From Minisyncoccia bacterium (GTDB lineage: Bacteria; Patescibacteriota; Minisyncoccia; Phycocordibacterales; UBA918): 64,000 bases of DNA. Position 1 is the first letter of the stretch, and each line of letters opens with the position of its first letter. Positions 6,485-49,146 of the stretch are shown piece after piece. A model generated the notes under the pieces. The model was given only the letters and a program-made list of their open reading frames with translations, was not told the DNA's origin and ran no database searches. Both the position numbers and the translations under genes were made by a program. The DNA is taken from contig JBKBPM010000001.1 of the NCBI GenBank assembly GCA_046293175.1, forward strand, positions 102,891 to 166,890, in the 5' to 3' direction.

Positions 6485-6594
6485 GCCTGACTGAAGAAGA
6501 AACATCAAAAACCGCCCGTATGGGCGGTTTTTGTTTTCCTGAAGTCGCTATCAAAAACAGCGTTTCGAAAGATCAGACACGGTATACTAAAGGG

Positions 6595-14963: not shown

Positions 14964-15561
14964 TCATCCCAAGAGCTCTGAGTTTGAAAACATGCACGCT
15001 GCTCCGGCTCAGAACGCGGTCAGTTCCTATCAAGTGCTACTTTCGCTCATGGTGACCGCCTTTGACCCGTTCGGGTTCTGGCGAGAGCATTTTATCGCCG
15101 GTAGGCACACCCGCATTTGCACTTGTGGTGAAAATGTCGTATAGTATAAAAGGTCTAATCAACCAAATTGTCCCGCTTCAATGTACTCAGAAAAGATGGA
15201 GAAAGAAGTTGAGGGACAACGAAGGTTTGAAAATGACCAAGCCGAGCGCGTGTGAAAAGTGTTTCGGCAATGAAAACGGCTGCAAGTTTGGTGGTGACAT
15301 CAAAAAGCCGCCACGGTCATGGAAGCAATGCGAGTATCGAGTCGCGCAAGCGAAAAAACTCATTCTCGAATCCAAGATTGCTCGTGGACAGGCATGTCCA
15401 TGGACGCCAACCTCTCTGGCAGTCTAAGTACAACGACAAGTGATGGTCTTCGAAGACATCTCTTGGCTGGATATTCCGGCAAACTGACCACCAGTCACGG
15501 TGGTCTTTCTTTTTGCTTTAGTATTGCATTTTTTTCTGTATCTGCTATAGTTTGCCCCATT

Positions 15562-15828
15562 ATGGTAGTACGAATGCGACATACGCGGTCCCACTCCGCC
15601 AATCGACGCTCTCACCACGCTCTTAAGAGCCCGGAGATGGCTGTCTGCAAAAACTGTGGTGCGATGCACCGTCCACATCACATGTGTTTGGCATGTGGCT
15701 TTTACAACGGTCGTATCGTGATTGATATGAAAGCTAAGGCAGAAGCCCGAGCAGCTCGCATGACCGCGAAGCGCGAAGCAATCCGCGCTGAGGCTGGTTT
15801 GCAAGCAGAAGCTCCGGCAACCAAGTAG
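15562..15828 (+). CDS. rpmF: 50S ribosomal protein L32 with a C-terminal Ala/Arg/Glu-rich extension
   Basis: MVVRMRHTRSHSANRRSHHALKSP...HRPHHMCLACGFYNGRIVI matches the L32 family (RRSHDAL, C-x2-C zinc ribbon). About 30 extra C-terminal residues. Confidence 0.75.
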   Translation: MVVRMRHTRSHSANRRSHHALKSPEMAVCKNCGAMHRPHHMCLACGFYNGRIVIDMKAKAEARAARMTAKREAIRAEAGLQAEAPATK

Positions 15829-17804: not shown

Positions 17805-18476
17805 ATGCAGCGCAAGTACTCTGCCGGTTTTTCACTCATCGAACTAATGGTTACCATTACCATTATTGGTATTTTGGCATCAATTATTTATGCCAATTTT
17901 GGTGGTGGCAATGCTAAAGCCCGTGATGCTAAGCGTCAGTCTGATTTGCGCATCATGCAAACGGCACTTGCTCAGTACAAACAACAGAATGGCCGATATC
18001 CGGCGATGGGGACTGATAGTAATGGTGATGGCTACGCTAGTGAAGGGGAGTCAGCTGCTTTTATTGTTGGGCTAACCCCAACCTACATAAATCGTTTACC
18101 AACCGATCCTCGTCGAGGCAGTAATCCTGGCTATTCATATGCAGTGGATAGTACCGGTAGCGTGTACAAGCTGGTTGCTCTTCGTACCGTTGAAACTGAA
18201 GTAGTGACCCATGAGCACCCATTTAAGAGTTGTGATATACGGGTAGGTAACAGTAGTGGATCTCTCGTCAGTGGTTCGACCGATCGTGAGGTGATTGGTT
18301 GGTGTGGACGTACAGCACAAGCGGGTAATGGTCTTCCAAGTTCATGTAATGCAGCTCAAGCGCCGTTTAATAATACCTACGGTGTTTGGGGAGGCTTTTT
18401 GCCAAAGACATCAGAAACCTGCGCTAACAATCTTACCAACTGTGTGCAAGATACAACTGCTATAATTTGTCTATGA
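17805..18476 (+). CDS. Type IV pilin / pseudopilin-like protein
   Basis: Prepilin N-terminal cleavage/methylation motif G-FSLIELMVTITIIGILASIIYA, followed by a Cys-containing globular domain. Confidence 0.75.
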   Translation: MQRKYSAGFSLIELMVTITIIGILASIIYANFGGGNAKARDAKRQSDLRIMQTALAQYKQQNGRYPAMGTDSNGDGYASEGESAAFIVGLTPTYINRLPTDPRRGSNPGYSYAVDSTGSVYKLVALRTVETEVVTHEHPFKSCDIRVGNSSGSLVSGSTDREVIGWCGRTAQAGNGLPSSCNAAQAPFNNTYGVWGGFLPKTSETCANNLTNCVQDTTAIICL

Positions 18477-18477
18477 T

Positions 18478-19020
18478 ATGAAAACACTTTCTTCACGCTT
18501 TGGCTTCACTTTAGTTGAACTGATGGTGGTCGTATCCGTGATTGGTATTCTTTCGAGTATTATTTATGCCAGTTTTGGTGGAGCAAGAGCAGCTGCTCGA
18601 GATGATGTACGCAAATCTGCTTTGAAGGAAGTACAGCTCGCACTCGAGCGCTATAAGGCTCAGTATGGCGTTTACCCTGCTCAGGGATGTGGCTCGTACC
18701 CAATCTATGCCGGAAGGGGTCCACATCCTGCTTGGGGTTGTTCTGCCGATCAGTACATTACTGGATTAGTACCGGACTTTATTTCCGAATTACCAAAAGA
18801 CCCAAATCAAGAAGATATTGATGGGTACGGCTATCTCTACCTCTCGACTGGAACCGATTATAAGTTAATTGCTCATCTCACTGTTGAGAAAAAACTCATT
18901 CAATCTTACAGGGATGAATTTGCGCGGTGCCCAGCTTCTATTGGTGCGGATCCGTGCGGGCCTGATCATCCTAACCCAAACACGTACGCCGTTTATTCAG
19001 CGGGTGCCGCAGGTTGGTAA
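18478..19020 (+). CDS. Type IV pilin-like protein (paralog A)
   Basis: GFTLVELMVVVSVIGILSSIIYA prepilin motif. About 60% identical to the next gene. Confidence 0.8.
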   Translation: MKTLSSRFGFTLVELMVVVSVIGILSSIIYASFGGARAAARDDVRKSALKEVQLALERYKAQYGVYPAQGCGSYPIYAGRGPHPAWGCSADQYITGLVPDFISELPKDPNQEDIDGYGYLYLSTGTDYKLIAHLTVEKKLIQSYRDEFARCPASIGADPCGPDHPNPNTYAVYSAGAAGW

Positions 19021-19028
19021 TTTAATTA

Positions 19029-19580
19029 ATGTCCCATCGTATGTATCGCTTTTTCAGAAAAACTGGCTTCACACTTGTCGAACTTATGGTAGTGATGTCG
19101 GTAATCGGTATTCTTTCGAGTATTGTCTATGCTAACTATAGCAGCTCTCGCGCCGTCTCGCGAGATGAGGTGCGTAAATCTGCACTCAAATCAATGCAGG
19201 TAGCGATTGAACTCTACAAATCTCAGTACGGCGTATATCCACCTCAAGGTTGTGGGACTTCACCAACTTGGGCTGGACCAGGACCACAACCGGCGTATGG
19301 TTGCACTGCTGACACGTACGTCACTGGTCTCGTACCAGATTTTATTGCTGCCTTGCCTACCGATCCGCTATCAGAAAATACCAACGGACTTGGCTTTTTA
19401 TATCGATCAACTGGTACTGATTACAAGCTTATGGTGCATAACTCAGTTGAAACTAAAACAGTCACTACCTATGAAGATGAGTTCGCCCGCTGTCCGCAGT
19501 CATATGGTACCGCTAATTGTCCCGCCGTACCGATGCCGCGTGTGTATGCTGTTTATTCGCCCGGTGCTGTTGGTTGGTAG
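19029..19580 (+). CDS. Type IV pilin-like protein (paralog B)
   Basis: GFTLVELMVVMSVIGILSSIVYA; a tandem duplicate of 18478-19020 (shared ...YGVYP.QGCG...GLVPDFI..LP.DP...YKL..H...E....Y.DEFARCP). Confidence 0.8.
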   Translation: MSHRMYRFFRKTGFTLVELMVVMSVIGILSSIVYANYSSSRAVSRDEVRKSALKSMQVAIELYKSQYGVYPPQGCGTSPTWAGPGPQPAYGCTADTYVTGLVPDFIAALPTDPLSENTNGLGFLYRSTGTDYKLMVHNSVETKTVTTYEDEFARCPQSYGTANCPAVPMPRVYAVYSPGAVGW

Positions 19581-19583
19581 TAT

Positions 19584-21839
19584 ATGTATCTCAAGGAACT
19601 AACCATCAATGGCTTTAAGTCATTTGCCAAAAAAAGTGAACTCGAATTCTCGGCTCCGATTACTGCTATTGTTGGGCCAAATGGCTCTGGTAAAAGTAAC
19701 GTGGCCGAGTCATTCCGGTTTGTTCTTGGTGAACAATCAGTGAAGTCACTGCGTGGGAAAAAAGGCGAAGATCTTATTTGGGGCGGGAGCGAGGCGGTGT
19801 CCCGAGGGAACCGCGCCTCGGTAGTGGTTGAGCTCGATAACACAAAACGCGTCTTTGCGCTTGATTTTGATACTATAAAAATTGAACGAGTGGTCCATCG
19901 TGATGGGCAAAACGAATATCTTATTAACGATACCCAAGTACGTCTCAAAGATGTTCAAGAGCTTCTTGCGGCAGCTAATATCGGTTCTACCGGTCACCAT
20001 ATTATTTCTCAAGGTGAGGCAGATCGTATTCTCTCTGCTTCAAGTCGCGAGCGTCGGGAGATGATTGAGGATGCACTTGGCTTGAAAGTCTATCAATATA
20101 AAAAGACCGAAGCAGAAAAAAAACTCGAAAAAACCAAAGAAAATATTGCTCAAGTAGAATCACTTCGCCGTGAACTTGCGCCACACCTAAAATATCTCAA
20201 AAAGCAGGTTGAGCGGGTCGAAAAATCATTGGCGGTCCAACAAGAGTTAAAAACGCTGTATGTTACCTACCTCAAACGTGAGGATACCTACCTCGCTTAT
20301 CATGCTGACCGACTTGATCTCGCGCGCCGTGCGCCAGCAAAACTGCTCTCTGAATTACAAGAGAAATTGGTGGCCGCCAAAACATTTTTGCGCAACGTCG
20401 AAGCCGCCAAAGACACGAGTGCTATTATTGAAGCCGAGGAAGCACTCGCCAAGTCGCGTAAGGTGCGAGCTGATTTGCTGCGAACCCTCGGTGCAGTCGA
20501 AGGAGAGGTGACGTACATACAACGCAAAATTGCGGGAGCGAGCCAGCGCGAACAGTCTGTCACAAAACAAGTGATAAGTGTTGAAGCTCTAGAAGAGCTT
20601 GTGGTTTCAGTTGAACAAGAAACCGAAAAGGCGCTCGCACGAGGAGACGAAGCAACACTTCGCCGTGCTCTCCAGGACCTCGTCCATAGTCTTAAGGCTT
20701 TTTTAAAGCGTACTGAGCCAACGACTTTTTCAGACACATCGCAACTTGAAGCAGAACTGCGCGAGACTGAAGCCAAACAAGCGGCACTGGCTCGGGACTA
20801 CGAACAGGCGCTTGCTGTGGAGAAGGGAGCTGAAGCCCATTATAACCACCTCAAACAAGCAATTGAAACCGAGGCGGCCTCGAGTCGTCAGGCCGAGCGA
20901 GCGGTATTTGAGCTCGTAGGTGAGGTGCGTAAGGTTGAGGTAGAGTTAGAGGCGATTGATCGTGAGCGTGAGCAGATCGACCGCGATCGCGAGGAATTCA
21001 AGCGAGAATTGCAAGAAGCAGTGGCGTTGATCAAGGGTGCTGCGGCTCAGTACTTTAATCATGAAATTATAGAAAATGGTGTGGTAGTAAGTCAGGAGGC
21101 GATTGTTGCTGAAGATCGTAACCTTCAGCGTGAGCGACGACGTGAACTTGAGAAGCTCAAGATTCGTCTTGAGGAACTCGGACAGGGTGCAACTGAAGAT
21201 GTACTCGACGAATACAACAAAGCGCTGGAACGCGACCAATTCCTCGAGCGCGAAACGACTGACCTCACGACCTCGGTGGCAAATCTTGAGAATCTTATTC
21301 TTGAGCTCAACAAAGAACTTCATGATCGGTTTGTGGTTGGCATAGACAAAATCACAGTCGAGTTCAACCGTTTCTTTGTGCTTATGTTTGGTGGGGGGAG
21401 CGCAAGCCTCAAGCGCGTGAAGCCAAAGGTAAAGCGTGTCACAGAAGACGGCGAAGAGGTAGAAGAAGACGGTGAAGAAACTGCCGAAGGGGTAGAAATT
21501 GATGTTAATTTACCGAACAAACGAGTCCGCGGACTTGATATGCTCTCAGGCGGCGAGCGAGCGCTCACTTCAATTGCGCTTATTTTCGCGATGAGTCAGA
21601 TTAACCCGCCACTCTTTATCATTCTTGACGAAACCGACGCGGCTCTTGATGAGGCTAATAGTCGTCGCTATGGTGACATGATTACTGCCTTAGCTGAAAA
21701 GTCACAGCTGATTCTCATTACCCACAACCGTGAGACGATGAGTCGTGCCGGGATCCTCTACGGAGTAACGATGGGTAGCGATGGGGTATCAAAACTCCTC
21801 TCGGTGAAGTTTGAGGAGGCGGTGGCGGTGGCAAAATGA
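19584..21839 (+). CDS. smc: SMC-family chromosome condensation ATPase; short at 751 aa, with no obvious hinge domain
   Basis: N-terminal Walker A (GPNGSGKSNV, RGKKGEDLIWGGSE). C-terminal signature/Walker B (LSGGERALTSIALIFAM, FIILDETDAALD). About 430 aa of coiled coil between them. Confidence 0.8.
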   Translation: MYLKELTINGFKSFAKKSELEFSAPITAIVGPNGSGKSNVAESFRFVLGEQSVKSLRGKKGEDLIWGGSEAVSRGNRASVVVELDNTKRVFALDFDTIKIERVVHRDGQNEYLINDTQVRLKDVQELLAAANIGSTGHHIISQGEADRILSASSRERREMIEDALGLKVYQYKKTEAEKKLEKTKENIAQVESLRRELAPHLKYLKKQVERVEKSLAVQQELKTLYVTYLKREDTYLAYHADRLDLARRAPAKLLSELQEKLVAAKTFLRNVEAAKDTSAIIEAEEALAKSRKVRADLLRTLGAVEGEVTYIQRKIAGASQREQSVTKQVISVEALEELVVSVEQETEKALARGDEATLRRALQDLVHSLKAFLKRTEPTTFSDTSQLEAELRETEAKQAALARDYEQALAVEKGAEAHYNHLKQAIETEAASSRQAERAVFELVGEVRKVEVELEAIDREREQIDRDREEFKRELQEAVALIKGAAAQYFNHEIIENGVVVSQEAIVAEDRNLQRERRRELEKLKIRLEELGQGATEDVLDEYNKALERDQFLERETTDLTTSVANLENLILELNKELHDRFVVGIDKITVEFNRFFVLMFGGGSASLKRVKPKVKRVTEDGEEVEEDGEETAEGVEIDVNLPNKRVRGLDMLSGGERALTSIALIFAMSQINPPLFIILDETDAALDEANSRRYGDMITALAEKSQLILITHNRETMSRAGILYGVTMGSDGVSKLLSVKFEEAVAVAK

Positions 21840-25475: not shown

Positions 25476-25680
25476 GCTATTGTTATTTAGGAATACAAAA
25501 ATGCCATTAATCCAGGCTCAAATAATTGCTGATATTCAAGGCGGCGAGGAAAAACATCATAAAACGTACGTATTTACTAAGTTACATGATGGTATGACAA
25601 AGCCAACAAAGAAGATAAGTGATTAGTGGATGGCTGGAGCTATTGACCAAATGACTGGTTTCTGCTACTCTTTCGCCACT

Positions 25681-26148
25681 ATGTTAATGATGCGTTTAAA
25701 GCGCGTAGGCCGCAAAAACAACCCAAGCTACCGTATTGTAGTCGTTGATAAGCGTACGAGCGTAAAAAGTAACAAAACTGTCGACCTCCTTGGCTCATAC
25801 GACCCAAAGCTCGGCCGTATTTCTATTAATGGTGATAAGGCTAAGCACTGGCTAGCTCACGGTGTTAAGCCATCAGTTACCGTGTACAATATGCTCGTCT
25901 CAGAGAAGATTGTCGACGGCAAGAAAAAGAATGCTTTGCCAAAAAAGTCACCAATCATTGACGAGGCGAAGCTCAAGGCTGAAGCCGAAGCTAAGGCTGC
26001 CGCTGAAAAAGCTGAAGCTGATGCTAAAGCAGCCGCTGAAGCTGCTAAAAAGGCTGAAGAAGAAGCGTCTGCCGTCCCAGCACCAGAGGTTGAAACACCA
26101 GTTGAGGCACCGGCTGAAACTCCAGTCGAAGAAGCAAAGGCTGAATAA
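25681..26148 (+). CDS. rpsP: 30S ribosomal protein S16 with a C-terminal Ala/Lys/Glu-rich tail
   Basis: MLMMRLKRVGRKNNPSYRIVVVDKRTS...LLGSYDP matches S16. The tail reads EAKLKAEAEAKAAAEKAEADAKAAAEAAKKAEEE. Start adjusted to an internal Met. Confidence 0.85.
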   Translation: MLMMRLKRVGRKNNPSYRIVVVDKRTSVKSNKTVDLLGSYDPKLGRISINGDKAKHWLAHGVKPSVTVYNMLVSEKIVDGKKKNALPKKSPIIDEAKLKAEAEAKAAAEKAEADAKAAAEAAKKAEEEASAVPAPEVETPVEAPAETPVEEAKAE

Positions 26149-39981: not shown

Positions 39982-40020
39982 AAAGGGCGGCCCTGCTATA
40001 GGGTCGCCCTTTTTTTCTTC
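39982..40020. terminator. Bidirectional terminator after rpoD
   Basis: aaagggcggccctgctatagggtcgccctttttttc. Confidence 0.7.
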
Positions 40021-40511
40021 TTGCTGCGCTGCTGGCGACTTTTCCGAGGGCGGTCAAAGGCTATATATCCGCGTGTTAGAGTGATGAGCACTGATTGTGG
40101 TAGTCCGTCCTTGGTAACGTAGACAGATTCGATAGTGAGAAGCTTCTCATGCGCCCTCCAGGCGGAGGGTGGTCCATCGACCGGTCTCCCTCTTGCGGTA
40201 AAGCGCTGCTCGCTGGTGAGGAGTTTGGCGTCGGGGTGCAGCCATTTGATTGGTCCTCTGCGTCCCCAGCCCTTGTCCTCTTTGGCGGTGAGGTGTCCCC
40301 AGAGCAAAATAGTCTCGTCATCGAGGAGTCTCTGTAGCACTGCTCTGAAGAGATTTTCTTCTATGACTGGAATAATCGCCGCCAGCAGTGTATCGAAAGC
40401 GAGGCCCCGATAGCAGATGCCTTTTACACCAGGTATTGGGGCACGACGGAGACGACGAATCATGTCGACTACCAGCTGCGCGGCACGCGCATCAGGAGAT
40501 GTGTCTGTCAT
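39996..40511 (-). CDS. GC-rich ORF resembling a degenerate calcineurin-like metallophosphoesterase; possibly a pseudogene
   Basis: 171 aa. DDETILLWGHLTAKEDKGWGRRGP aligns loosely to phosphoesterase motif II (DxLxLxGDxVDRG) with the metal ligands substituted. No GNHE. The 3' end runs into the rpoD terminator. GC about 56%. Confidence 0.25.
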   Translation of the reverse strand: MTDTSPDARAAQLVVDMIRRLRRAPIPGVKGICYRGLAFDTLLAAIIPVIEENLFRAVLQRLLDDETILLWGHLTAKEDKGWGRRGPIKWLHPDAKLLTSEQRFTARGRPVDGPPSAWRAHEKLLTIESVYVTKDGLPQSVLITLTRGYIAFDRPRKSRQQRSKKKKRATL

Positions 40512-40657: not shown

Positions 40658-41431
40658 ATGGACGTTCCTTCACAGAGTTGGCACATACTCACTATTACGC
40701 TGTATTCAGCGTTAGTGACTTTGGCTGCGGTCATGTTTGCATGGCCGGTGCCCTTGGCACTCTTTTTTCTCTGTGGTGTGCCGCTTATTGTTCTTCTCTA
40801 TGAGACAGATTTACCACTCGGTCGACTACTTGGTCTCGTGGGTATTTTGTCGGTCGTAGTGGTGGTGCTTGATGCGGTTGCTCATACCACAGGGAGTTGG
40901 TATACGGTTGTTGGTTCCCCGTGGCGATTCTTGGGAGTGACGTTTGAGTCGGCACTCTTCGCTTTTATACATACCTTGTACTTCCTTGTTCTGTATGAGT
41001 TCATGTTTGATGACACCAAAGTCAGAGGAATAGCCCGCCGGGGGGTGGCTGGTATGGCTGCTGTGATTGCTACCCTCGTCATAGCCGGTTTTTATCTCTT
41101 TTCGGTTTGGTTGGTAACATTTGCTTTTTTGTGGATGATTGTCCTGTTGTTTGTGCTGGTGCTCGCTCTTATGTGGCTCGCACATCCAGGGAACTCGACA
41201 CACTTGGTCAACAAAGCCTTTCTCTTTGGTATTCTTGTCTATCCACTGTCGTTACTCTTTGAGTTGGTTGCCCAGGCCGGGGAAGTCAGAATATTTGCAT
41301 TCACCAACGAGTATCTGTTTATGGTACCCCTTGCTCAGTATGCTGTTCCTGTTGAAGAACTTCTCCTCCTCATCCTGTGGCCAACATTACTCGTATTTCT
41401 CTACGAGTGTTTCATTGATGATGGGATATAA
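40658..41431 (+). CDS. Polytopic integral membrane protein, hypothetical
   Basis: 257 aa with about 7 predicted TM helices. PVEELLLL-type motif faintly reminiscent of lycopene-cyclase-domain proteins. Confidence 0.55.
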   Translation: MDVPSQSWHILTITLYSALVTLAAVMFAWPVPLALFFLCGVPLIVLLYETDLPLGRLLGLVGILSVVVVVLDAVAHTTGSWYTVVGSPWRFLGVTFESALFAFIHTLYFLVLYEFMFDDTKVRGIARRGVAGMAAVIATLVIAGFYLFSVWLVTFAFLWMIVLLFVLVLALMWLAHPGNSTHLVNKAFLFGILVYPLSLLFELVAQAGEVRIFAFTNEYLFMVPLAQYAVPVEELLLLILWPTLLVFLYECFIDDGI

Positions 41432-41468: not shown

Positions 41469-43550
41469 TTACGAATGGCGGACTAATTCTTCTTGCAATG
41501 TTACGTAGAGCTTTGGCGTAATGAGTTGCCGCTCAAAAAGTTCAGTGAGCATCACTTCTTCAATTTTTGATACACCACGGAGAGCAAGGGTATGGGCAAG
41601 TGCTTCGTAGCGAACTTTGTGTCCGATGGCAATTTCCCGCATCTTTTGCTCAGATTGTTCTTTGAAGGTAGTGTAGAGGGCTGTCACATGTTCAAGAGCG
41701 TCTTTGGTGAAAATGTGCGCAGCTTGTTCGGTACCAATATCACCAATCTCTTTTACCACTTTTCGAGAGATAATCGCTTGGGCTCGGTAGTACATAAAGA
41801 GATGGTCGACATCTTCTTCATGGGTTCGAGGACTTACGAGATTACGGATACTGTTGGCAATCCGATCAAAGATATCTTTACCATCGGTGTGAAGAGACAT
41901 GTCGGGTTTGAGGTTGCCTGATTCAATGGCTTCTTGCTGCAATTGCAATTTACCGTACAGGTGTCGGTAGACCGCCTCATCAACCTCATTGTGATGATAT
42001 AGCTCCTTGAGGTGCCGCAGTTCAATACCAATAGCAAACATGCGTAATACTCGCTTTGCGAGTGCTTTAGTATCTGGCGCAGTAAGTTTTTCACAAGCAG
42101 CACGAAAGGCTGTTTCGTGATGCTGAAGAAGGTTTTCTGCTACGGCACTTTCAATGTAACCACGTTCGGCATATCTAGTAATACGTTCGGTGACTTCATG
42201 ATGGATGAGAGCTCTCGCTTCAAGTGATTCGACTTCCTCAATTGGGGTGAGCGTGTCTAGCTTGAGGCGACGCATGAAGTATTGGATAGTTGGCGCCTTT
42301 ATAAACAGTGTCGCGACAATGCATCCAACTGTCAAAGAGAGGAGAAACTCTTTTGGAGAGAGGGGTAGTGTCCAACCAGCAAAGGCAAGATCGTTTGGAA
42401 TGAGGAGCACCATCGTAACCGCGAGCGCACCACGGAGTGACCCCCATGACAGGAGGTGTTGCCACGAGAGCGGAATGTAGCGATCTTTTTGACTGAATAG
42501 GTTATATGTTGATACGACTGGGTAGATAGAGATGGCCCGAGCGATGGCAACGATAATAATCGTCAAAAGTACAATCAATAAGGTGGCAGGTGTCACTGGT
42601 GGCATATTTGCTACCAAGAGACCGATAAGAATGAAGATGAGGGAGTTGGCAATAAAGGCCAGTTCACTCCAGAGCTTCTCAACGAACTCTTCAGCGCGGG
42701 GATGGATTTTGCTACGACCATAATTACCCATGAGAAGAGCGGCCACCGTGGTGGCAATAATTGGTGATAGCGGCAAATGTGTGTCACCGATGTGGAGATG
42801 GTGTGAAGCAATCTCAGCGCCAATAAAAGTGATGTGCGCGAGGGCAATCGTGAGCGTGATGCTCGCTACCTCGTTTTCACGGGTGAAGCCAATTAATTGA
42901 GCAAAAATACCACCAACCACTACACCAAAGATGACACCTCCAACCATCATCGAGGTAAACGCTATGGTGCCGTCGAGGACAGTGTCAAACCCCTGGTAGC
43001 CGAATCGTGCCACTTCAAGAAGAACTAAAAAGAGTGCCACTGCGGTTGCGTCATTAAAAAGACTCTCACCTTCAAAGATGAGTGACAACCGACGTGGTGC
43101 ACCGTACTCCTTAAAGAGTGCCAGTACCGCCACTGGGTCGGTAGCAGAGATGAGTGCGCCAAAGATAAGGGTTACTATGAACGGTACCCCAAGACCGAGG
43201 AATAAGAGTGCGTAATAGAGGCCGGCTGCGATAATAACAGTTGAAACCAGTAAGCCGACTACTGATAAAATGAGAATAATCCAGGCGTCTTCTACCATGC
43301 GACGAACATTGATGTTGTACGCTGATTCAAAAATGAGTGTCGGTAGAAGGAGGTAAAAAAGTAGTTCTGGGGTGAGTTGAAACTCGCCAAAAAAGTGAAA
43401 GGTTGGTGTATGCGATAAAATGCCGAGAACAAGTCCAACAATTACTAAAAATACGGTATGGGGCAGCTTGACTCGTTTCGCCCAAAAAATAGCGAGACTC
43501 GAGATGGCGAGCATAGCAAAGATGGCGAGTGTAGCGTTGGCAGTAAGCAT
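41469..43550 (-). CDS. Na+/H+ antiporter (CPA1/NhaP-type) with a C-terminal cytoplasmic domain of about 280 aa
   Basis: 693 aa. 10-12 TM helices with the cation/H+ exchanger signature (ATDPVAVLALFKEYGAP, SLFNDATA). Soluble C-terminal domain. Confidence 0.85.
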   Translation of the reverse strand: MLTANATLAIFAMLAISSLAIFWAKRVKLPHTVFLVIVGLVLGILSHTPTFHFFGEFQLTPELLFYLLLPTLIFESAYNINVRRMVEDAWIILILSVVGLLVSTVIIAAGLYYALLFLGLGVPFIVTLIFGALISATDPVAVLALFKEYGAPRRLSLIFEGESLFNDATAVALFLVLLEVARFGYQGFDTVLDGTIAFTSMMVGGVIFGVVVGGIFAQLIGFTRENEVASITLTIALAHITFIGAEIASHHLHIGDTHLPLSPIIATTVAALLMGNYGRSKIHPRAEEFVEKLWSELAFIANSLIFILIGLLVANMPPVTPATLLIVLLTIIIVAIARAISIYPVVSTYNLFSQKDRYIPLSWQHLLSWGSLRGALAVTMVLLIPNDLAFAGWTLPLSPKEFLLSLTVGCIVATLFIKAPTIQYFMRRLKLDTLTPIEEVESLEARALIHHEVTERITRYAERGYIESAVAENLLQHHETAFRAACEKLTAPDTKALAKRVLRMFAIGIELRHLKELYHHNEVDEAVYRHLYGKLQLQQEAIESGNLKPDMSLHTDGKDIFDRIANSIRNLVSPRTHEEDVDHLFMYYRAQAIISRKVVKEIGDIGTEQAAHIFTKDALEHVTALYTTFKEQSEQKMREIAIGHKVRYEALAHTLALRGVSKIEEVMLTELFERQLITPKLYVTLQEELVRHS

Positions 43551-43659
43551 AAAATAACCATTATTTTCTAAAAACAGGTTGACACTATACTCCTCTAGTC
43601 GATTGGCGGCAAGCCCTCACGATGCGTCAAGTGCGAGGTGAAATGGTATACTAGAGTCC

Positions 43660-46600
43660 ATGAAGAATCTCCATGACGATGCCTATCAGACTGCCTACAA
43701 ACGCCTCAATGCCAAGCAAAAGGAAGCGGTAGACGCTATTGAAGGGCCGGTGATGGTGATAGCAGGACCGGGAACAGGTAAGACGCAGATTCTGACGTTG
43801 CGGATTGCGAATATCCTCAGACAAACCCAGATGAATCCGGAAAACATCCTCGCTCTCACGTTTACCAAGTCTGGCGCCAAAGCCATGCGCGAGCGTCTCT
43901 TCCAGTTTATCGGGAACGCTGCCTATCGTGTTTCTATCAATACCTTCCATGGACTGGCCGAACGGCTTATTCGTGAGTATCCTGAAGCGTATACAAAAAT
44001 TATTGGAGGGAAAGCCGTCACCGAAATTGAAAAAATCGACATTATCGAAACGATTCTTGAAGCACCTGACTTGCGACTCCTTCGTCCGACCGGTGCACCT
44101 GAGTTTTATGTAGCGCCACTGTTGTCGATTATCAGTCATATGAAGCAGGAGAATATATCGCCTGATGGTTTGGCAGAACTCATTACGATACAGGAGTGTG
44201 AACTTAAAGCTACTCCTCAGTATCATGAAAAAGGCGCCTACAAAGGTAAAGAGCGTGGTGAATATACAAAAATGGCTGGATATATCGAAAAGCAACGAGC
44301 GCTTCTGGTAGTCTATCGACAGTACGAAACCTTGCTGCGCGAGCGGCAGCGCTACGACTTTGACGACATGATTGTGGAGACGGTGCGCGTGCTTACTCAA
44401 AACGAGACCGTGCGCCTTAATCTCCAAGAAACCTACCAGTATATCTTGGCTGACGAACATCAAGATGTGAACGGTGCCCAAAACGAAATTTTGGTACAAC
44501 TGACCTCCTTTCATGAAAATCCCAATCTCTTTGTGGTAGGTGATGAGAAGCAAGCCATCTACCGTTTTCAAGGCGCCTCTTTGGAGAACTTTCTCCATTT
44601 TGAAAAGTTGTACCCGCAAACCAAAGTGATTGTCTTGACTTCCAACTATCGATCGACTCAGCCAATCCTTGATGTGGCACACGAATTAATTAAGGTAGAG
44701 GAGGGGCCATTGATTGATTACCGTATCGCACTTGAAGCACATACTGATATAGCGACAGCACCAACACTCACTACCTACAGTAACGAGCAACACGAACACG
44801 CAGCACTTTTGGTAAAGATCAGAGCTGCATTAGCTCTAGGTGTTGCACCAAACGATATAGCGGTAATTGTCCGGTCCAACCGTGAAGTTGAAACTATTGC
44901 TGAATTGCTGACGGGAGCTGGTATTGCTGTTGAGGCTAGTGCCGACGCTGATGTCCTTGAACATCCACTCTTTTTGGCAGTAATTGATTTGCTCGAGACC
45001 ATTTTGAACCCTGCTGATATGACACGTCTCACCCGAGTGTTTATGGCGCCGTATTCCGGTGTACCAGCGTCTGATATGGCCCGTATTATGGCCAACCTTT
45101 CTTATGATACACCTTTGGTTGTTCGCCTCGGGGATGAAAAATGGCTTTTGAGTGTTGGTGTTGAAAACATAGCTGCTTGTACACGTCTAGTAACGCTCCT
45201 TGAGGAAATTCGGGGTAAAGTACTCACTGCTCCGCCACATCGGCTTTTAGCTTCACTTTTGACAGAGAGTGGACTCTTTAAGGAGGCATTTGGTGCTCTG
45301 CCGCAAGAGAGTACGAGAGTACTACGACGACTTTATGATGAAGTGGAGGGGTTTGTGCGTAATGGCGAAGCGCTCACGCTGGCTGATGTCGTGCGGCTGT
45401 TGCGTCGGCGAATGGAGTATCGAGTACCGCTTTCAGCGCCATTTGTGTCGGGAGGCGCTGAAGCGGTGCAGGTGATGACTGCTCACAAATCAAAAGGTCT
45501 CGAATTTGATACTGTCTTTATTCCTCATCTTACTGAGGGTAGTTGGGGGAAAGGCAGTCAGGCTGATTACTTCAAGGTGCCACTGGTTGCGACGGCGAGC
45601 CTCAAGCTCGAAGCTAATGAAGACGAACGACGACTCCTCTACGTGGCGATGACACGCGCGAAGCGAGCACTTTCTCTATCGTATGCCGAGCAAAGTAGTG
45701 ATGGTAAGGTACTCATGCCAGCGCCATTTACGGCTAGTATTGGCGAACTGCTGCCAACAATCACCGATGATACAGTCGTCTCTCATGATTCACTACCGTT
45801 GCCAAAAATTGAGTCACCAACCATAACAGTACTGAGGGGTATCCTGCTTCGTTCACTGACTGATCGCGGACTCTCAGCGACGTCACTAAATAACTGCATC
45901 AAAAACCCATGGCAGTACCTCTACCGGAATGTGTTCCATGTACCTGAAGTACAGGCGCTCCCAATGCTCTATGGTACGGCGATGCACGGCGTCCTTGAGA
46001 TGGCAACCAAACACCATACTGTTCATGGTTCACTCCCATCCATAAGCCAGCTCCGCGATGTGCTCATTCGTGAGCTCGGACGTTTACCGTTAAGTACGGT
46101 GGAGTTCAGCGATCTCCTCGAAAAAGGCCAAGAGACACTCGTGGTGTACCGCGAACATCTGGCGGAGACATTGCCACCAGCTTCCAGAGCTGAATTGTCT
46201 GTGAAAGTACTTCTCCCAACAAAACATCCTCAGGTACCATTGTTACCACTGACTGGGAAGCTCGACCGCATTGATCTAAACCCTGACGGTACCGCCTTGC
46301 GAGTAGTTGATTATAAGACCGGCAAGGCCAAGACCCGCAATGATATCGAAGGCAAAACCGCCAAAGCTGATGCCTCGTACCGCCGCCAGCTATCATTTTA
46401 CTCACTCCTCTTATCACTCCATGACGATGAGCGGTATCGAACTGATGAGGGTGTATTGTCATTTATCGAACCTGATAGTAAAGGTCGTATACATGATGAG
46501 TCATATACAAGCGGGGAAGTCGAGCGAGCTGCCTTACTAGAAGAAATTGAAGCAGCTATTGCGACGATTGTCTCTGGTGATTTCTTATACGATGAAGTGC

Positions 46601-46662
46601 TCCTTGAAGCGAGTGATTACGCTCACTTGGGACGACTCTTATTTAAGCAGTTACATTCGTAG
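43660..46662 (+). CDS. UvrD/PcrA-like superfamily-1 helicase fused to a C-terminal PD-(D/E)XK (RecB/AddB-type) nuclease domain
   Basis: Walker A AGPGTGKTQ, motif II LADEHQDVNG, motifs III-VI (FVVGDEKQAIYRFQGA, TSNYRST, MTAHKSKGLEFDTVF, LLYVAMTRAK). C-terminal nuclease motifs GK-LDRIDL ... VVDYKTGKAK. Confidence 0.85.
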   Translation: MKNLHDDAYQTAYKRLNAKQKEAVDAIEGPVMVIAGPGTGKTQILTLRIANILRQTQMNPENILALTFTKSGAKAMRERLFQFIGNAAYRVSINTFHGLAERLIREYPEAYTKIIGGKAVTEIEKIDIIETILEAPDLRLLRPTGAPEFYVAPLLSIISHMKQENISPDGLAELITIQECELKATPQYHEKGAYKGKERGEYTKMAGYIEKQRALLVVYRQYETLLRERQRYDFDDMIVETVRVLTQNETVRLNLQETYQYILADEHQDVNGAQNEILVQLTSFHENPNLFVVGDEKQAIYRFQGASLENFLHFEKLYPQTKVIVLTSNYRSTQPILDVAHELIKVEEGPLIDYRIALEAHTDIATAPTLTTYSNEQHEHAALLVKIRAALALGVAPNDIAVIVRSNREVETIAELLTGAGIAVEASADADVLEHPLFLAVIDLLETILNPADMTRLTRVFMAPYSGVPASDMARIMANLSYDTPLVVRLGDEKWLLSVGVENIAACTRLVTLLEEIRGKVLTAPPHRLLASLLTESGLFKEAFGALPQESTRVLRRLYDEVEGFVRNGEALTLADVVRLLRRRMEYRVPLSAPFVSGGAEAVQVMTAHKSKGLEFDTVFIPHLTEGSWGKGSQADYFKVPLVATASLKLEANEDERRLLYVAMTRAKRALSLSYAEQSSDGKVLMPAPFTASIGELLPTITDDTVVSHDSLPLPKIESPTITVLRGILLRSLTDRGLSATSLNNCIKNPWQYLYRNVFHVPEVQALPMLYGTAMHGVLEMATKHHTVHGSLPSISQLRDVLIRELGRLPLSTVEFSDLLEKGQETLVVYREHLAETLPPASRAELSVKVLLPTKHPQVPLLPLTGKLDRIDLNPDGTALRVVDYKTGKAKTRNDIEGKTAKADASYRRQLSFYSLLLSLHDDERYRTDEGVLSFIEPDSKGRIHDESYTSGEVERAALLEEIEAAIATIVSGDFLYDEVLLEASDYAHLGRLLFKQLHS

Positions 46663-46728: not shown

Positions 46729-47493
46729 TTAAGTACCGGCCTCGGCGGTTCCCCCTTCAAGCTGTGTGATCAAACGTTCGATAATTTGTTTTACTACAGG
46801 GTATGGCTGGGCACCATTGATGACGGCCTTTTGGTCACCTACTGTTACAACTGAGTATGGTGTACCCTGTGCGCCAGCTTTCACACCGTCTTCAAGACTT
46901 GCTTCAACGGTGGCAGTATGACGGCCACTTGAAAGACAGGTATTAAAATCAGCACGTGAGACACCGGCCTTTTCAGCAAACTCTGGGAGCTTCGTCATAT
47001 TGGTTGGTTCGTTGACATCACGTTCACTGAAGACTAAGTCTGAGAAGGTCCAGAATGCTCCATCTCCTCCAAGTTCACCAACACAATAGGCAGCTTCAGA
47101 AATACGTGGTGCGTTTGGGTGAAGCTGGGCGAGCGGGAACTGACGGTACACCCAGGCGACTTTACCAGTTACCCCATAATCATCCATGATGAGCTTCATA
47201 GTATCGTGGAAGTTCTTACAAAATGGACAATCGTAGTCAGAATACTCGACAATCGTGATTGGTGCATTTGGGTTACCACGAATAAAGTCCTTTTCAGTTA
47301 CTGGCGAGAGCTCAATCGCTTTTTCAGCCTCTGGTGTTTGCACAACAGTGTTTGGTGTGTTCGTTGTTTTTCCACCACTAAAGTAAATGGCAATAGCAAT
47401 AAATGCGAATCCAACTACAATCGCAAAGGGAATTCCCATATTTGCAGCTGGTCTTGGTGTAGGGGCAAAATTTTGGTTTGTCTCTTCTGGCAT
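46729..47493 (-). CDS. DsbA-family thiol:disulfide oxidoreductase, membrane-anchored
   Basis: Start adjusted to MPEETNQ.... TM anchor, then a thioredoxin fold with the CPFC active site (YSDYDCPFCKNFH). Confidence 0.8.
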   Translation of the reverse strand: MPEETNQNFAPTPRPAANMGIPFAIVVGFAFIAIAIYFSGGKTTNTPNTVVQTPEAEKAIELSPVTEKDFIRGNPNAPITIVEYSDYDCPFCKNFHDTMKLIMDDYGVTGKVAWVYRQFPLAQLHPNAPRISEAAYCVGELGGDGAFWTFSDLVFSERDVNEPTNMTKLPEFAEKAGVSRADFNTCLSSGRHTATVEASLEDGVKAGAQGTPYSVVTVGDQKAVINGAQPYPVVKQIIERLITQLEGGTAEAGT

Positions 47494-47584
47494 ACACAAT
47501 AATATCAATAACGAATATGGACACAGTATACCATGGCATTTAGGGAAATAAATCGTATGGTATACTCTTGGGGATTGGCTACAT

Positions 47585-48394
47585 ATGACATTTATTGAAT
47601 CGATTGCACTTGGTGTACTACAAGGACTAACAGAATTTTTACCGATTTCTTCATCTGGACACCTCGTCCTGGCCCATGATTTTTTAGGTGTAGTAGGGGA
47701 AGGGTCGCTCGCTTTTGATGCCGTTTTACACCTTGCGACCGCTACCGCTGTCCTCATCTATTTTAAAAAAGACTTCTGGATACTGTTTCAGGCCTTGCTG
47801 CGTAAGCTCGGTCGACTCCCGGTTCATACCCCTGACCTTACCTTAGCCTACGCGCTCCTCATCGGTACCATCCCAGCGGTAATCATTGGTATCTTCCTCG
47901 AAGATATCATGGCCACCCTATTTCGGAACCCACTTTTGGTCGCGGGTTCCCTCATTGCTGGATCGCTTTTGTTTATCTATGCCGAGTGGTTTTACTACAA
48001 CTCTACCCCACAAAATGATATGACTATCAGCAAAGCTGTGAAGATTGGCCTCTTCCAGTGTCTAGCCTTTGTACCGGGCTTCTCCCGCTCCGGTGCGACT
48101 ATTGCCGGCGGTATGCTCATGGGGCTGTCACGCAGTGAAGCGGCGCGCTTTGGGTTTTTGCTCGCGGTACCGCTTCTCATGGGGGCGGGTGGGAAGAAGC
48201 TCCTTGAACTTATCTCTACCGGCGGTGACTTTGCCTGGGCTACTATCTTTGCGGGTGCAATTGCGGCCTTTGTGGTGGGACTCGCGGCTATTCATTTTAT
48301 GCTTTCATTTGTCCGGAAGTATTCGCTGTGGCCGTTTGTGTGGTATCGACTGTTTCTCGCACTTCTTGTTATCTATATATTTGCACTAAGTTAG
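47585..48394 (+). CDS. uppP: Undecaprenyl-diphosphate phosphatase
   Basis: ALGVLQGLTEFLPISSSGHLVL and GFSRSGATI motifs; 8 TM helices. Confidence 0.9.
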   Translation: MTFIESIALGVLQGLTEFLPISSSGHLVLAHDFLGVVGEGSLAFDAVLHLATATAVLIYFKKDFWILFQALLRKLGRLPVHTPDLTLAYALLIGTIPAVIIGIFLEDIMATLFRNPLLVAGSLIAGSLLFIYAEWFYYNSTPQNDMTISKAVKIGLFQCLAFVPGFSRSGATIAGGMLMGLSRSEAARFGFLLAVPLLMGAGGKKLLELISTGGDFAWATIFAGAIAAFVVGLAAIHFMLSFVRKYSLWPFVWYRLFLALLVIYIFALS

Positions 48395-48570: not shown

Positions 48571-49146
48571 TTAAAAGAGGAGAGAGTGAGTCATGGCGGC
48601 GTCTTCCTTGATCATCCAAGTGGAGATATCCAGAGGGATTTCACGTTTTCGGCTGCCGTCTTTGAACTTCACATGACCGTGAGCGAGGGCATAGTCAAAG
48701 ACCTTCTTGGTGACTTTTACATCCTGTTCGCAGTACTTTTTGATCTCATCAATTTTACCTTCTTTCCACCAGCGAACGGCTTGGAGACCATGGGCAGATT
48801 TTTTGGCTCCGACGGTAGCTTCGGCCACACTATCGAGGCGTAGGCGGCGACCAAGTGACTGACGGATACTCTCTAGAAGATCAATACTCTTGATATGGGA
48901 GAGATCGCCTGGATAGTACTTATTGAGGAGGGGAATATCAAAGTGGTTACTGTTGTAGCCAACGAGCGCATCAGCTTGCTCGACAATTGGCCAGGCCTGG
49001 TCAAGCTCATCAACCGTGAAGGTGGAGTACTTGTCAGTGCCACTATCGTAGAAGGTGGCGACAGAGATATCGAGCGCTGCCGGATCATTTGAACCAACTT
49101 CCTCAAAGATATTTTGCGTTTCTAAGTCGAAGATAATGTACCGCAT
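48571..49146 (-). CDS. DEDD-family 3'-5' exonuclease
   Basis: FDLET (exo I), YNSNHFDIPLL (exo II), YCEQDVKVT (exo III, Y-x3-D). Confidence 0.7.
   Translation of the reverse strand: MRYIIFDLETQNIFEEVGSNDPAALDISVATFYDSGTDKYSTFTVDELDQAWPIVEQADALVGYNSNHFDIPLLNKYYPGDLSHIKSIDLLESIRQSLGRRLRLDSVAEATVGAKKSAHGLQAVRWWKEGKIDEIKKYCEQDVKVTKKVFDYALAHGHVKFKDGSRKREIPLDISTWMIKEDAAMTHSLLF

What the first reader, a model, noticed from the sequence alone, without database searches (positions are those of the whole stretch)
43660..46662. Single-polypeptide UvrD-type helicase fused to a RecB-family nuclease (AddA/AdnB-like) with no partner subunit nearby
Full SF1 helicase motif set, followed by a C-terminal PD-(D/E)XK module with the diagnostic DYKTGK motif and no Fe-S cysteine cluster. 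Typical AddAB/AdnAB systems are two-subunit. A lone helicase-nuclease next to an antiporter and DsbA suggests a minimal end-resection enzyme for a reduced genome, or a defence-related nuclease-helicase.
Basis: partly seen in the sequence, partly recalled or inferred. Interest (0 to 1): 0.5.

Follow-up and report, generated by a model that had tools for sequence, protein, structure and literature searches.

The report
Lone helicase-nuclease that lost its iron-sulfur cluster
This gene encodes a one-piece DNA-unwinding and DNA-cutting enzyme that belongs to an already catalogued but biochemically unstudied family of stand-alone "UvrD-Cas4" fusions; here it sits among housekeeping genes of a small-genome Patescibacteria bacterium and has lost the iron-sulfur cluster its relatives keep.

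Summary
Window 43660-46662 (+) is one 1000-aa ORF with a complete UvrD/PcrA-type SF1A helicase (aa 1-~700) and a C-terminal PD-(D/E)XK nuclease (aa ~720-1000). All catalytic motifs, including DYKTGK, are present, and there is no Fe-S cysteine set.

No second helicase or nuclease gene lies in the 64-kb window or within 10 kb in 41 related Patescibacteria loci. The same test found AddB beside AddA in 28 of 39 control loci.

The label "AddA/AdnB-like" is only half right. The motor is closest to PcrA/UvrD and AdnB. The nuclease belongs to the Cas4/AddB/AdnA/Dna2 class, not the RecB/AddA class.

The protein belongs to the stand-alone "Cas4-UvrD" fusion family, described by comparative genomics in 2017 and including Parcubacteria leaves. 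Clear relatives, also without partners, occur in Bacteroidota chromosomes and plasmids.

That family ancestrally carries four Fe-S cysteines: 117/117 Bacteroidota members and most Patescibacteria. The window's sub-clade lost them stepwise (CCCC, SCCC, SCSC, NVSA).

Synteny with dnaG-rpoD and HisRS argues for a vertically inherited repair gene, not a defence gene.

An unlinked partner could not be excluded. The verdict is a variant of a known kind, of modest interest.

The parts
43660..46662 (+). Complete gene for the 1000-aa stand-alone helicase-nuclease (stop codon included)
   Evidence: ORF list and translation. Pfam UvrD-helicase + UvrD_C + PDDEXK_1. At least 7991 homologues at E <= 1e-10; the 120 best listed all share this architecture.
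43660..45759 (+). SF1A (UvrD/PcrA-type) helicase module, aa 1-700
   Evidence: Best NCBIfam and PDB matches are PcrA, then Rep and UvrD, then AdnB, then AddA, then RecB. Foldseek of the full-length model hits UvrD and PcrA. No PcrA/UvrD Tudor domain appeared in the Pfam scan.
43765..43785 (+). Helicase motif I / Walker A, GPGTGKT (aa 36-42)
   Evidence: Invariant in alignment A1. G38, K41 and T42 are intact in all 39 family loci.
44452..44466 (+). Helicase motif II / Walker B, DEHQD (aa 265-269)
   Evidence: Invariant.
45643..45663 (+). Helicase motif VI, VAMTRAK (aa 662-668)
   Evidence: V662, T665, R666 and K668 are invariant and A663 and A667 nearly so in alignment A1; R666 is intact in all 39 family loci.
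45817..46659 (+). PD-(D/E)XK nuclease module of the Cas4/AddB/AdnA/Dna2 class, aa 720-1000
46255..46275 (+). Nuclease motif II, GKLDRID, with catalytic D869
   Evidence: Invariant. Aligns with GRLDRLE of AdnA.
46309..46326 (+). Nuclease motif III, DYKTGK (D884, K886)
   Evidence: Invariant. D884 aligns with AdnA D934, the residue mutated in nuclease-dead AdnA (PMC5314763).
46387..46401 (+). QxxxY motif (Q910, Y914) of RecB-family nucleases
   Evidence: Invariant.
45904..45906 (+). N749, the position of the first Fe-S cysteine in relatives (LxCP(W) becomes KNPW)
   Evidence: Alignment with Bacteroidota and other Patescibacteria members.
46597..46623 (+). V980, S985 and A988, the positions of the C-terminal C-x4-C-x2-C Fe-S ligands in relatives
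   Evidence: Pattern CCCC in 117/117 Bacteroidota members and most Patescibacteria loci. Pattern NVSA in the window.
43644..43652 (+). Possible extended -10 promoter element TGGTATACT, ending 7 nt before the ATG. No Shine-Dalgarno sequence, so the mRNA may be leaderless.
   Evidence: Read directly from the sequence. The simple promoter scan did not flag it. Inference only.

Best explanation
The gene encodes a self-contained helicase-nuclease of the "Cas4-UvrD" fusion family. It joins an active SF1A (UvrD/PcrA-type, 3'-to-5') motor to an active PD-(D/E)XK nuclease of the Cas4/AddB/AdnA/Dna2 class.

Shown:
- The domain composition and the intact catalytic residues.
- Family membership by homology.
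- No adjacent partner gene in Patescibacteria or Bacteroidota.
- Placement in a conserved block of housekeeping genes in Patescibacteria.
- Stepwise loss of the four Fe-S ligand cysteines in the window's sub-clade.

Inferred:
- It is a vertically inherited chromosome-maintenance enzyme of this Patescibacteria lineage.
- It most likely loads at a DNA end, nick or gap.
- The motor tracks 3'-to-5' on one strand while the displaced 5'-ended strand is fed to the nuclease, as in AdnA and AddB. This leaves a 3' single-stranded tail for RecA.
- It works either as a monomer or as a homodimer.
- It may also do UvrD/PcrA-type jobs.
For: Architecture and motifs.

Motor affinity:
- NCBIfam: PcrA 310 bits, Rep 252, UvrD 231, AddA and RecB about 165.
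- PDB sequence search: PcrA 3e-59, AdnB 5e-29, AddA 3e-20, RecB 8e-10.

Nuclease class:
- The nuclease profile finds only AdnA in the PDB.
- It detects the AddB-type ORF in 28/39 AddAB loci, but AddA's own nuclease in only 6/39.
- NCBIfam hits over the nuclease region are addB_alphas and TIGR03623.
- Relatives carry the Cas4/AddB-type 1+3 cysteine set.
- The AdnA nuclease takes the displaced 5' strand and has an Fe-S subdomain (PMC5314763; PMC13000450).

Lone status:
- 0/41 Patescibacteria loci have a second helicase or nuclease ORF within 10 kb, with a working positive control.
- The Hymenobacter, Pontibacter and Mucilaginibacter relatives also have no adjacent partner.
- All family members keep both active sites, so there is no degenerate "B-type" subfamily.
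- In the NJ tree the syntenic loci are paraphyletic. There is no deep A/B paralogue split.

Housekeeping character:
- The block dnaG-rpoD-...-gene-DsbA-BacA-exonuclease-HisRS is conserved in 20/42 loci, down to 31-35% identity.
- Only 4 weak partial hits were found in viral contigs.

Family already described: PMC5704561, section 8 and supplementary tree.
Against: - There is no biochemical or genetic data for any member of the family.
- Strand polarity of cleavage is inferred only from which nuclease class the domain resembles. In AddA, AdnB and RecB, the nuclease fused to the active motor cuts the tracked 3' strand. On geometry alone, the opposite polarity is therefore possible.
- In other bacteria the family co-occurs with RecB (PMC5704561) and sometimes sits in defence islands (BREX-adjacent). 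It need not be the main resection enzyme.
- I could not see whole Patescibacteria genomes. Absence of AddAB/RecBCD, of a separate UvrD/PcrA, or of an unlinked partner is not shown.
- Loss of the Fe-S cluster, which is needed for DNA-end binding in AddAB (title of Yeeles et al. 2009, as listed in the references of PMC3321194), might change the substrate preference in this clade.
Confidence: 0.55

Rival explanations
1. It is the A-type subunit of a conventional two-subunit AddAB/AdnAB-type machine whose partner is encoded elsewhere in the genome.
For: - The domain architecture equals that of AddA, AdnA and AdnB.
- From my own knowledge, addA and addB are unlinked in Helicobacter pylori, so lack of adjacency is not proof.
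- Only 64 kb of this genome is visible.
Against: - 0/41 related loci have an adjacent partner, while 28/39 AddAB control loci do.
- The family is distinct from AddA: own-domain HMM scores are 387/108 bits for a Bacteroidota relative, against about 120 and at most 21 bits for AddA.
- Relatives in Bacteroidota are stand-alone as well.
- There is no deep paralogue split and no degenerate subfamily.
- The nuclease is already of the "B-type" class.
Confidence: 0.1
2. It is a defence-related helicase-nuclease that degrades invading DNA, as proposed for Cas4-UvrD fusions next to type III R-M or Dcm/Vsr genes.
For: - The published family analysis links many members to defence contexts (PMC5704561).
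- The Hymenobacter plasmid relative lies next to a BREX system.
- The helicase part hits PADLOC GajB models.
Against: - The PADLOC hits cover only the generic UvrD fold. No GajA or other defence gene is nearby.
- The neighbours here, and in 20/42 loci, are dnaG, rpoD, DsbA, BacA and HisRS.
- Neighbours in the non-syntenic loci are also housekeeping genes: TypA, Obg, GyrB, TsaD.
- The gene is vertically inherited across deep Patescibacteria lineages.
- Composition of the region is unremarkable.
Confidence: 0.1
3. It is this lineage's PcrA/UvrD orthologue, working in nucleotide-excision and mismatch repair, RecA-filament removal and replication-transcription conflicts. On this reading the nuclease is an accessory add-on, and the protein is not an end-resection enzyme.
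For: - The best sequence and fold matches of the motor are PcrA, UvrD and Rep.
- Public pipelines name it PcrA or helicase II.
- It sits beside dnaG and rpoD.
Against: - It scores 310 bits against a PcrA model cut-off of 911.
- No PcrA/UvrD Tudor domain was detected.
- The nuclease active site is invariant across the family, so it is not a decaying appendage.
- Bacteroidota relatives belong to large genomes. From my own knowledge these also carry a canonical UvrD; this was not checked here.
Confidence: 0.2

Closest known systems
Cas4-UvrD (UvrD-Cas4-like) helicase-nuclease fusion family, pfam12705 branch (Hudaiberdiev et al. 2017, PMC5704561)
   Same: - N-terminal UvrD-like SF1 helicase and C-terminal PF12705 nuclease in one chain of about 1000-1070 aa.
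- The gene is often stand-alone.
- The paper's supplementary tree contains leaves labelled Cas4-UvrD from the Parcubacteria group and CPR2.
- Bacteroidota proteins of this type are clear homologues over both domains.
   Different: - The window protein lacks all four Fe-S cysteines that Cas4-type nucleases and its own relatives keep.
- Its context is a conserved housekeeping block, not the type III R-M or Dcm/Vsr neighbourhoods stressed in the paper.
- I could not verify that the paper's Parcubacteria leaves are the same orthologous group.
Mycobacterial AdnAB (AdnA and AdnB subunits)
   Same: - Each subunit is a UvrD-like motor followed by a C-terminal PD-(D/E)XK nuclease of about 1000 aa.
- The target's motor resembles AdnB (E 5e-29).
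- Target D884 aligns with AdnA D934.
   Different: - AdnAB is an obligate heterodimer encoded by adjacent genes. Here there is a single gene with no partner nearby.
- The AdnA nuclease has an Fe-S subdomain at the fork (PMC13000450). The window protein has none.
- Here the AdnB-like lead motor and the AdnA-like nuclease are in one chain.
AddAB (Bacillus, Bacteroides, alphaproteobacteria) and RecBCD
   Same: - The same overall logic: an SF1A motor plus a RecB-superfamily nuclease.
- The catalytic set H/E/D/D-x-K/QxxxY is shared with AddA.
- The full-length model aligns with AddA and RecB chains.
   Different: - Curated AddA and RecB models score about 165 bits, against cut-offs of about 700-860.
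- The helicase part is PcrA-sized and lacks the large AddA/RecB insertions.
- There is no AddB, RecC or RecD gene nearby.
- The nuclease is of the AddB class, not the AddA/RecB class.
PcrA/UvrD/Rep helicases
   Same: The motor domain gives the best sequence and fold match, and public annotation names it PcrA.
   Different: - A 280-aa nuclease module is appended.
- No Tudor domain hit was found.
- The scores are far below the equivalog cut-offs.
Dna2 (eukaryotic and archaeal nuclease-helicase)
   Same: - A single polypeptide that combines a Cas4/AddB-class nuclease with an SF1 helicase.
   Different: - Dna2 has the nuclease at the N-terminus.
- Its helicase is an SF1B 5'-to-3' motor.
- It has an Fe-S cluster.

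Membership tests
Cas4-UvrD helicase-nuclease fusion family (PMC5704561) | UvrD-like SF1 helicase fused N-terminally to a pfam12705 nuclease in one polypeptide | tested here: met
   Pfam PF00580 + PF13361 + PF12705 in one 1000-aa ORF.
Cas4-UvrD helicase-nuclease fusion family (PMC5704561) | Homology over both domains to recognised stand-alone members outside Patescibacteria | tested here: met
   - Hymenobacter protein: 29% identity over aa 8-938, E 4e-95.
- Own-domain HMM scores of 387 and 108 bits, against about 120 and at most 21 bits for AddA.
- Identity of these Bacteroidota proteins with the paper's clade is inferred from architecture and cysteines. It was not checked against the paper's tree.
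Cas4-UvrD helicase-nuclease fusion family (PMC5704561) | Cas4-type Fe-S module (one N-terminal and three C-terminal cysteines) | tested here: not met
   The window has N749, V980, S985 and A988 at the four positions. Relatives have CCCC, with SCCC and SCSC intermediates. The loss is secondary within an otherwise orthologous clade.
Cas4-UvrD helicase-nuclease fusion family (PMC5704561) | Stand-alone gene or defence-type neighbourhood (type III R-M, Dcm/Vsr) | tested here: inconclusive
   The gene is stand-alone, but it sits in a housekeeping block rather than a defence neighbourhood.
AddAB, subunit AddA | Score above the curated AddA model cut-offs | tested here: not met
   TIGR02785: 162 bits against a cut-off of 708. 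TIGR02784: 168 bits against 861.
AddAB, subunit AddA | Partner AddB gene (normally adjacent) | tested here: not met
   None in the window, and none in 41 related loci. The control detected AddB in 28/39 AddA loci. A partner elsewhere in the genome cannot be tested with these tools.
AddAB, subunit AddA | AddA/RecB-class nuclease without Fe-S ancestry | tested here: not met
   The nuclease profile prefers AddB and AdnA. Relatives carry the Fe-S cysteines.
AdnAB | Two adjacent paralogous motor-nuclease genes forming a heterodimer | tested here: not met
   There is a single gene. No paralogue lies within 10 kb in 41 loci, and the tree shows no deep A/B split. Heterodimer or homodimer formation cannot be tested here.
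RecBCD, subunit RecB | Score above the RecB model cut-off, and recC/recD genes present | tested here: not met
   TIGR00609: 166 bits against a cut-off of 696. No RecC or RecD hits in the window ORFs.
PcrA/UvrD | Score above the equivalog cut-off, and the PcrA/UvrD C-terminal Tudor domain | tested here: not met
   TIGR01073: 310 bits against a cut-off of 911. UvrD: 223-231 bits against 965-1144. No Tudor-domain family appears among the Pfam hits. A nuclease follows the 2A domain instead.
Gabija GajB or other defence helicases | Co-encoded effector (GajA OLD-family nuclease) or a defence-island context | tested here: not met
   PADLOC gives only generic UvrD-fold hits. The neighbours are housekeeping genes.

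The most novel reading that the evidence does not exclude
In Patescibacteria, this one polypeptide is the cell's only double-strand-break end-resection machine and also its only UvrD-family helicase. It would replace RecBCD/AddAB/AdnAB, and perhaps UvrD plus RecJ, by pairing a 3'-to-5' lead motor with a 5'-strand nuclease in cis. The window's clade would further show that the "essential" Fe-S staple of AddB/AdnA/Cas4/Dna2-class nucleases can be dispensed with.
Probability: 0.25. Interest if true: 0.6.

Novelty: new variant of a known kind. Interest (0 to 1): 0.33.

Why it matters
If the enzyme works alone, it is the simplest known bacterial solution for making recombinogenic 3' tails: one chain, one motor, one nuclease. 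It would be a tractable model for how the two-subunit AdnAB, AddAB and RecBCD machines could have arisen.

The graded loss of the four cysteines among close relatives (CCCC, SCCC, SCSC, none) is a ready-made natural series. It could be used to ask what the Fe-S cluster of AddB/AdnA/Cas4/Dna2-class nucleases is really for.

On the practical side, thousands of Patescibacteria genes now labelled "PcrA" or "ATP-dependent helicase" are helicase-nucleases. Counting them as UvrD/PcrA in metabolic or repair reconstructions is misleading.

Tried and rejected
1. Paralogue hypothesis. About 19 family loci at 33-38% identity lie outside the dnaG-rpoD/HisRS block. I asked whether they are an unlinked "B" paralogue. 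I rejected this for three reasons:
- In the NJ tree, syntenic loci are paraphyletic and one syntenic locus nests among the non-syntenic ones.
- All members keep both active sites.
- The neighbours of the non-syntenic loci are varied housekeeping genes with no recurrent partner.

2. "Family restricted to Patescibacteria". A tblastn search of plasmids then found full-length Bacteroidota relatives, so the claim was dropped.

3. Phage origin. Only four weak partial helicase hits were found in viral contigs.

4. Literature. Six of the eight full-text searches (Patescibacteria/CPR with AddAB, RecBCD, RecFOR, UvrD and similar terms) found nothing on this protein in Patescibacteria. The seventh led to the Cas4 phylogenomics paper, and the eighth to the AdnAB and AddAB papers used for the Fe-S comparison. 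One further search failed on syntax and was not counted.

6. The exact window protein is not on record in the assembly index, so the source contig could not be extended.

7. The representative-library search with the nuclease profile gave family size (594 clusters at E <= 1e-30). In every listed hit the domain ends within about 25 residues of the C-terminus of the protein or gene fragment, and about half of the listed hits are full-length (~1000 aa) proteins carrying it at ~720-1000. No other architecture appeared.

Full report
**1. The observation**

Window 43660-46662 (+) is one uninterrupted ATG-initiated ORF of 1000 codons. Pfam finds three domains:
- UvrD-helicase, aa 16-318, E 2e-60.
- UvrD_C, up to about aa 678.
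- PDDEXK_1, aa 738-976, E 1e-19.

I aligned it with 33 homologues of 49-89% identity (A1). All SF1 helicase motifs are invariant or nearly so: the Q motif, GPGTGKT, DEHQD, VGDEKQ..YRFQGA, YRS, TAHKSKGLEF and VAMTRAK. So is the RecB-family nuclease set: H776, E845, D869 in GKLDRID, D884-Y-K886 in VVDYKTGK, and Q910xxxY914. No cysteine is conserved.

The flanking genes are also as stated. A Na+/H+ exchanger (41469-43550) lies on the opposite strand upstream. A DsbA-like thioredoxin (46729-47757) lies on the opposite strand downstream. The gene is monocistronic.

**2. The organism and the neighbourhood**

The window is a block of core genes: gyrB, ThrRS, dnaE, RNase HII, L32, NusB, RNase III, an SMC-like ATPase, RNase R, S16, TrmD, rpoB, rpoC, dnaG, rpoD, HisRS and aldolase.

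The closest homologues (up to 98% identity) come from metagenomes. Where they are named, the names are Candidatus Parcubacteria, Paceibacteria or Patescibacteria.

Relatives at 65% and 51% identity lie in the same order, rpoC-dnaG-rpoD-...-gene-DsbA-BacA-RNaseH-like exonuclease-HisRS. Across 42 distinct family loci, 20 keep this block. These include the most divergent members, at 31-35% identity. GC content and skew are unremarkable. This is a vertically inherited chromosomal gene, not an island.

**3. Is there a partner?**

I built HMMs from the protein's own helicase and nuclease halves. I searched them against every ORF of at least 100 aa in the window and in all fetched loci.
- In the window and in all 41 Patescibacteria loci (up to 10 kb on each side), the only hit, even at E <= 1, is the gene itself.
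- The same search served as a positive control. In 39 loci that encode bona fide AddA-type proteins (mostly Alphaproteobacteria), the nuclease HMM picked up the separate upstream AddB-type ORF in 28 loci, 15 of them at E <= 1e-3.

I then considered that family members outside the conserved block might be an unlinked paralogous "B subunit". Three results argue against it:
- A neighbour-joining tree shows the Patescibacteria proteins as one clade against AddA, with syntenic loci paraphyletic and interleaved with non-syntenic ones.
- Every member retains both active sites.
- The non-syntenic loci have varied housekeeping neighbours, such as TypA, Obg, GyrB and TsaD, with no recurrent partner.

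What I could not do is inspect a whole genome of this lineage. An unlinked partner therefore remains formally possible. From my own knowledge, addA and addB are unlinked in Helicobacter pylori.

**4. What each half resembles**

The motor:
- Curated NCBIfam models rank PcrA (310 bits), Rep (252), UvrD (231), then AddA and RecB (about 165). All are far below their cut-offs.
- A sequence search of the PDB ranks PcrA 3e-59, UvrD1, UvrD, Rep, AdnB 5e-29, AddA 3e-20, RecB 8e-10.
- The full-length AlphaFold model (pLDDT 82.8, pTM 0.76) matches UvrD and PcrA over the helicase. It matches AddA, AdnB and RecB chains over longer stretches.

The nuclease:
- Modelled alone, it is confident (pLDDT 91.7).
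- A sequence profile of the nuclease finds only AdnA in the PDB. Target D884 falls on AdnA D934. D934 is the residue mutated in nuclease-dead AdnA (PMC5314763).
- In the control loci the profile recognises AddB-type nucleases far more often than AddA's own nuclease: 28 against 6 of 39.

Overall, the protein combines a PcrA/AdnB-like lead motor with an AdnA/AddB/Cas4-class nuclease. "AddA/AdnB-like" is therefore only half right.

**5. The wider family, and prior knowledge**

The genome scan relies on two exact peptide patterns and returned only Patescibacteria as full-length relatives. A tblastn search of plasmids showed that this was an artefact of the method.
- A Hymenobacter plasmid encodes a 1065-aa "ATP-dependent DNA helicase" that aligns over aa 8-938 (29% identity, E 4e-95).
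- That protein scores 387 and 108 bits with my helicase and nuclease HMMs. AddA proteins score about 120 and at most 21 bits.
- It is stand-alone and lies between a sigma-54 regulator/umuDC and a BREX system.
- Using it as a query shows a large Bacteroidota family of 1030-1080-aa proteins with the same architecture.
- Two chromosomal examples, from Pontibacter and Mucilaginibacter, also have no partner nearby.

This corresponds to the "UvrD-Cas4" fusion described by Hudaiberdiev et al. 2017. That paper calls it the largest branch of pfam12705 Cas4-like proteins. It reports the fusion as monophyletic in both domains. It finds the gene either stand-alone or next to type III R-M or Dcm/Vsr genes, usually co-occurring with RecB, and predicts it to be ancillary to defence or repair (PMC5704561). 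The paper's supplementary tree carries leaves labelled Cas4-UvrD from "Parcubacteria group" and "candidate division CPR2".

The kind of protein is therefore already catalogued. None of my searches found any biochemical characterisation.

**6. The Fe-S cluster: a derived loss**

Cas4, AddB, Dna2 and AdnA nucleases carry a 4Fe-4S cluster. In AdnA the cluster subdomain sits at the fork and keeps the two strands apart (PMC13000450). In AddAB the cluster contributes to DNA binding and stability (PMC3321194).

I aligned the C-terminal 340 residues of 117 Bacteroidota members, 119 database Patescibacteria members and 39 locus-derived members. Four cysteine positions emerge: one in L-x-C-P near the start of the nuclease, and three in C-x4-C-x2-C at the C-terminus. 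The patterns are as follows:
- CCCC in 117/117 Bacteroidota proteins.
- CCCC in most Patescibacteria lineages, both syntenic and non-syntenic.
- Progressive loss within the window's clade: SCCC (L011, L012, L019), SCSC (L001, L006-L008, L010), DCCA/ECCA (L009, L022), and finally NASA/NVSA (L004 and the window: N749, V980, S985, A988).
- A second, independent loss in L039 and L044.

The catalytic residues stay invariant throughout, and the cluster-less domain is predicted with high confidence. So the nuclease is very probably still functional. The missing Fe-S motif is thus not evidence of AddA/RecB affinity. It is a secondary loss inside an Fe-S nuclease family.

**7. Mechanism**

Shown:
- One chain carrying an intact SF1A ATPase/translocase and an intact metal-dependent nuclease.
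- No adjacent partner.
- A conserved housekeeping context.

Inferred from established knowledge of SF1A helicases and of AdnAB/AddAB:
- The motor tracks 3'-to-5' on one strand.
- A lead motor joined to a 5'-strand-class nuclease would directly leave a 3' tail for RecA. That is the product of end resection.

I rate this step at roughly 35-40%. In AddA, AdnB and RecB, the nuclease attached to the active motor acts on the 3' strand. A homodimer, with one protomer leading and one trailing as in AdnAB, is an equally open possibility. The protein may also cover UvrD/PcrA-type tasks if the genome has no other SF1A helicase, which I could not test.

**8. Rivals**

- Two-subunit enzyme with an unlinked partner: about 0.1.
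- Defence nuclease-helicase: about 0.1. Family members elsewhere do sit in defence islands, but nothing in this locus or its Patescibacteria relatives does. The family is also essentially absent from viral contigs, and the PADLOC hits are generic UvrD-fold matches.
- PcrA/UvrD orthologue with an accessory nuclease: about 0.2. This is not exclusive of the main explanation.

**9. Verdict**

The protein is a member of the known but uncharacterised stand-alone Cas4-UvrD helicase-nuclease family. Two features make it a variant: complete secondary loss of the Fe-S ligands, and a deeply conserved housekeeping position in Patescibacteria.

Interest is modest (0.33). It is not surprising to a specialist that such fusions exist. 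However, a possible one-chain resection enzyme and the natural series of Fe-S loss are both experimentally attractive.

Noticed in passing
window 46729-47757 (-) and 47585-48394 (+): The DsbA-like ORF is 342 aa here but 257 aa in relatives (L001, L004). Its 5' part overlaps the start of the BacA/UppP gene, so the real start is probably an internal codon.
   Followed up: partly
window 48571-49146 (-): A 191-aa RNase_H_2 / DNA_pol_B_exo2-type predicted 3'-5' exonuclease lies two genes downstream. It is syntenic with the helicase-nuclease in 20 of 42 family loci. A functional link was not examined.
   Followed up: partly
window 43644-43652: TGGTATACT (an extended -10-like element) ends 7 nt before the ATG of the helicase-nuclease gene, and there is no Shine-Dalgarno sequence. 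The mRNA may be leaderless.
   Followed up: no
window 19584-21839 (+), preceded by 17805-19580: An SMC_N/AAA_23 protein of only 751 aa (canonical SMC is about 1180 aa) directly follows three ORFs with N-terminal methylation (type IV pilin-like) motifs.
   Followed up: no
window 15935-16837 (+): NusB domain (aa 7-136) fused to a NUDIX hydrolase domain (aa 167-281) in one 300-aa ORF.
   Followed up: no
window 15319-15828 (+) and 25630-26148 (+): The ribosomal protein L32 domain sits at aa 87-136 of a 169-aa ORF, which means either an N-terminal extension or a wrong start. S16 is 172 aa, with a long C-terminal extension.
   Followed up: no
window 4394-6484 (+) and 6391-7803 (+): Two large ORFs (696 and 470 aa) have no Pfam hit at all. 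They lie downstream of a sortase gene (2595-3248), so they may be surface proteins.
   Followed up: no
window 39996-40511 (-) and 40658-41431 (+): Two ORFs between rpoD and the antiporter have no Pfam hit. The 257-aa one is conserved at the same position in relatives (L004, L005).
   Followed up: no
loci L006, L012, L013, L024, L025: Record titles such as "uncultured Candidatus Saccharibacteria", "Gammaproteobacteria" or "Pseudomonadales" are attached to contigs that carry this Patescibacteria-type gene. In L006 the contig also carries the same rpoC-dnaG-rpoD synteny as the window. These MAG labels look unreliable.
   Followed up: partly
L091 7974-11218 (Hymenobacter sp. DG25B plasmid): Here the family gene is annotated as two adjacent CDSs, a 599-aa helicase and a 458-aa PD-(D/E)XK protein. 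This is either a frameshifted copy or a natural split of motor and nuclease.
   Followed up: no
L039 and L044: A second, independent loss of all four Fe-S cysteines (patterns SIDL and SEDL) occurs in a deep-branching syntenic Patescibacteria lineage. These loci also have the weakest nuclease-domain scores (49 and 38 bits).
   Followed up: partly
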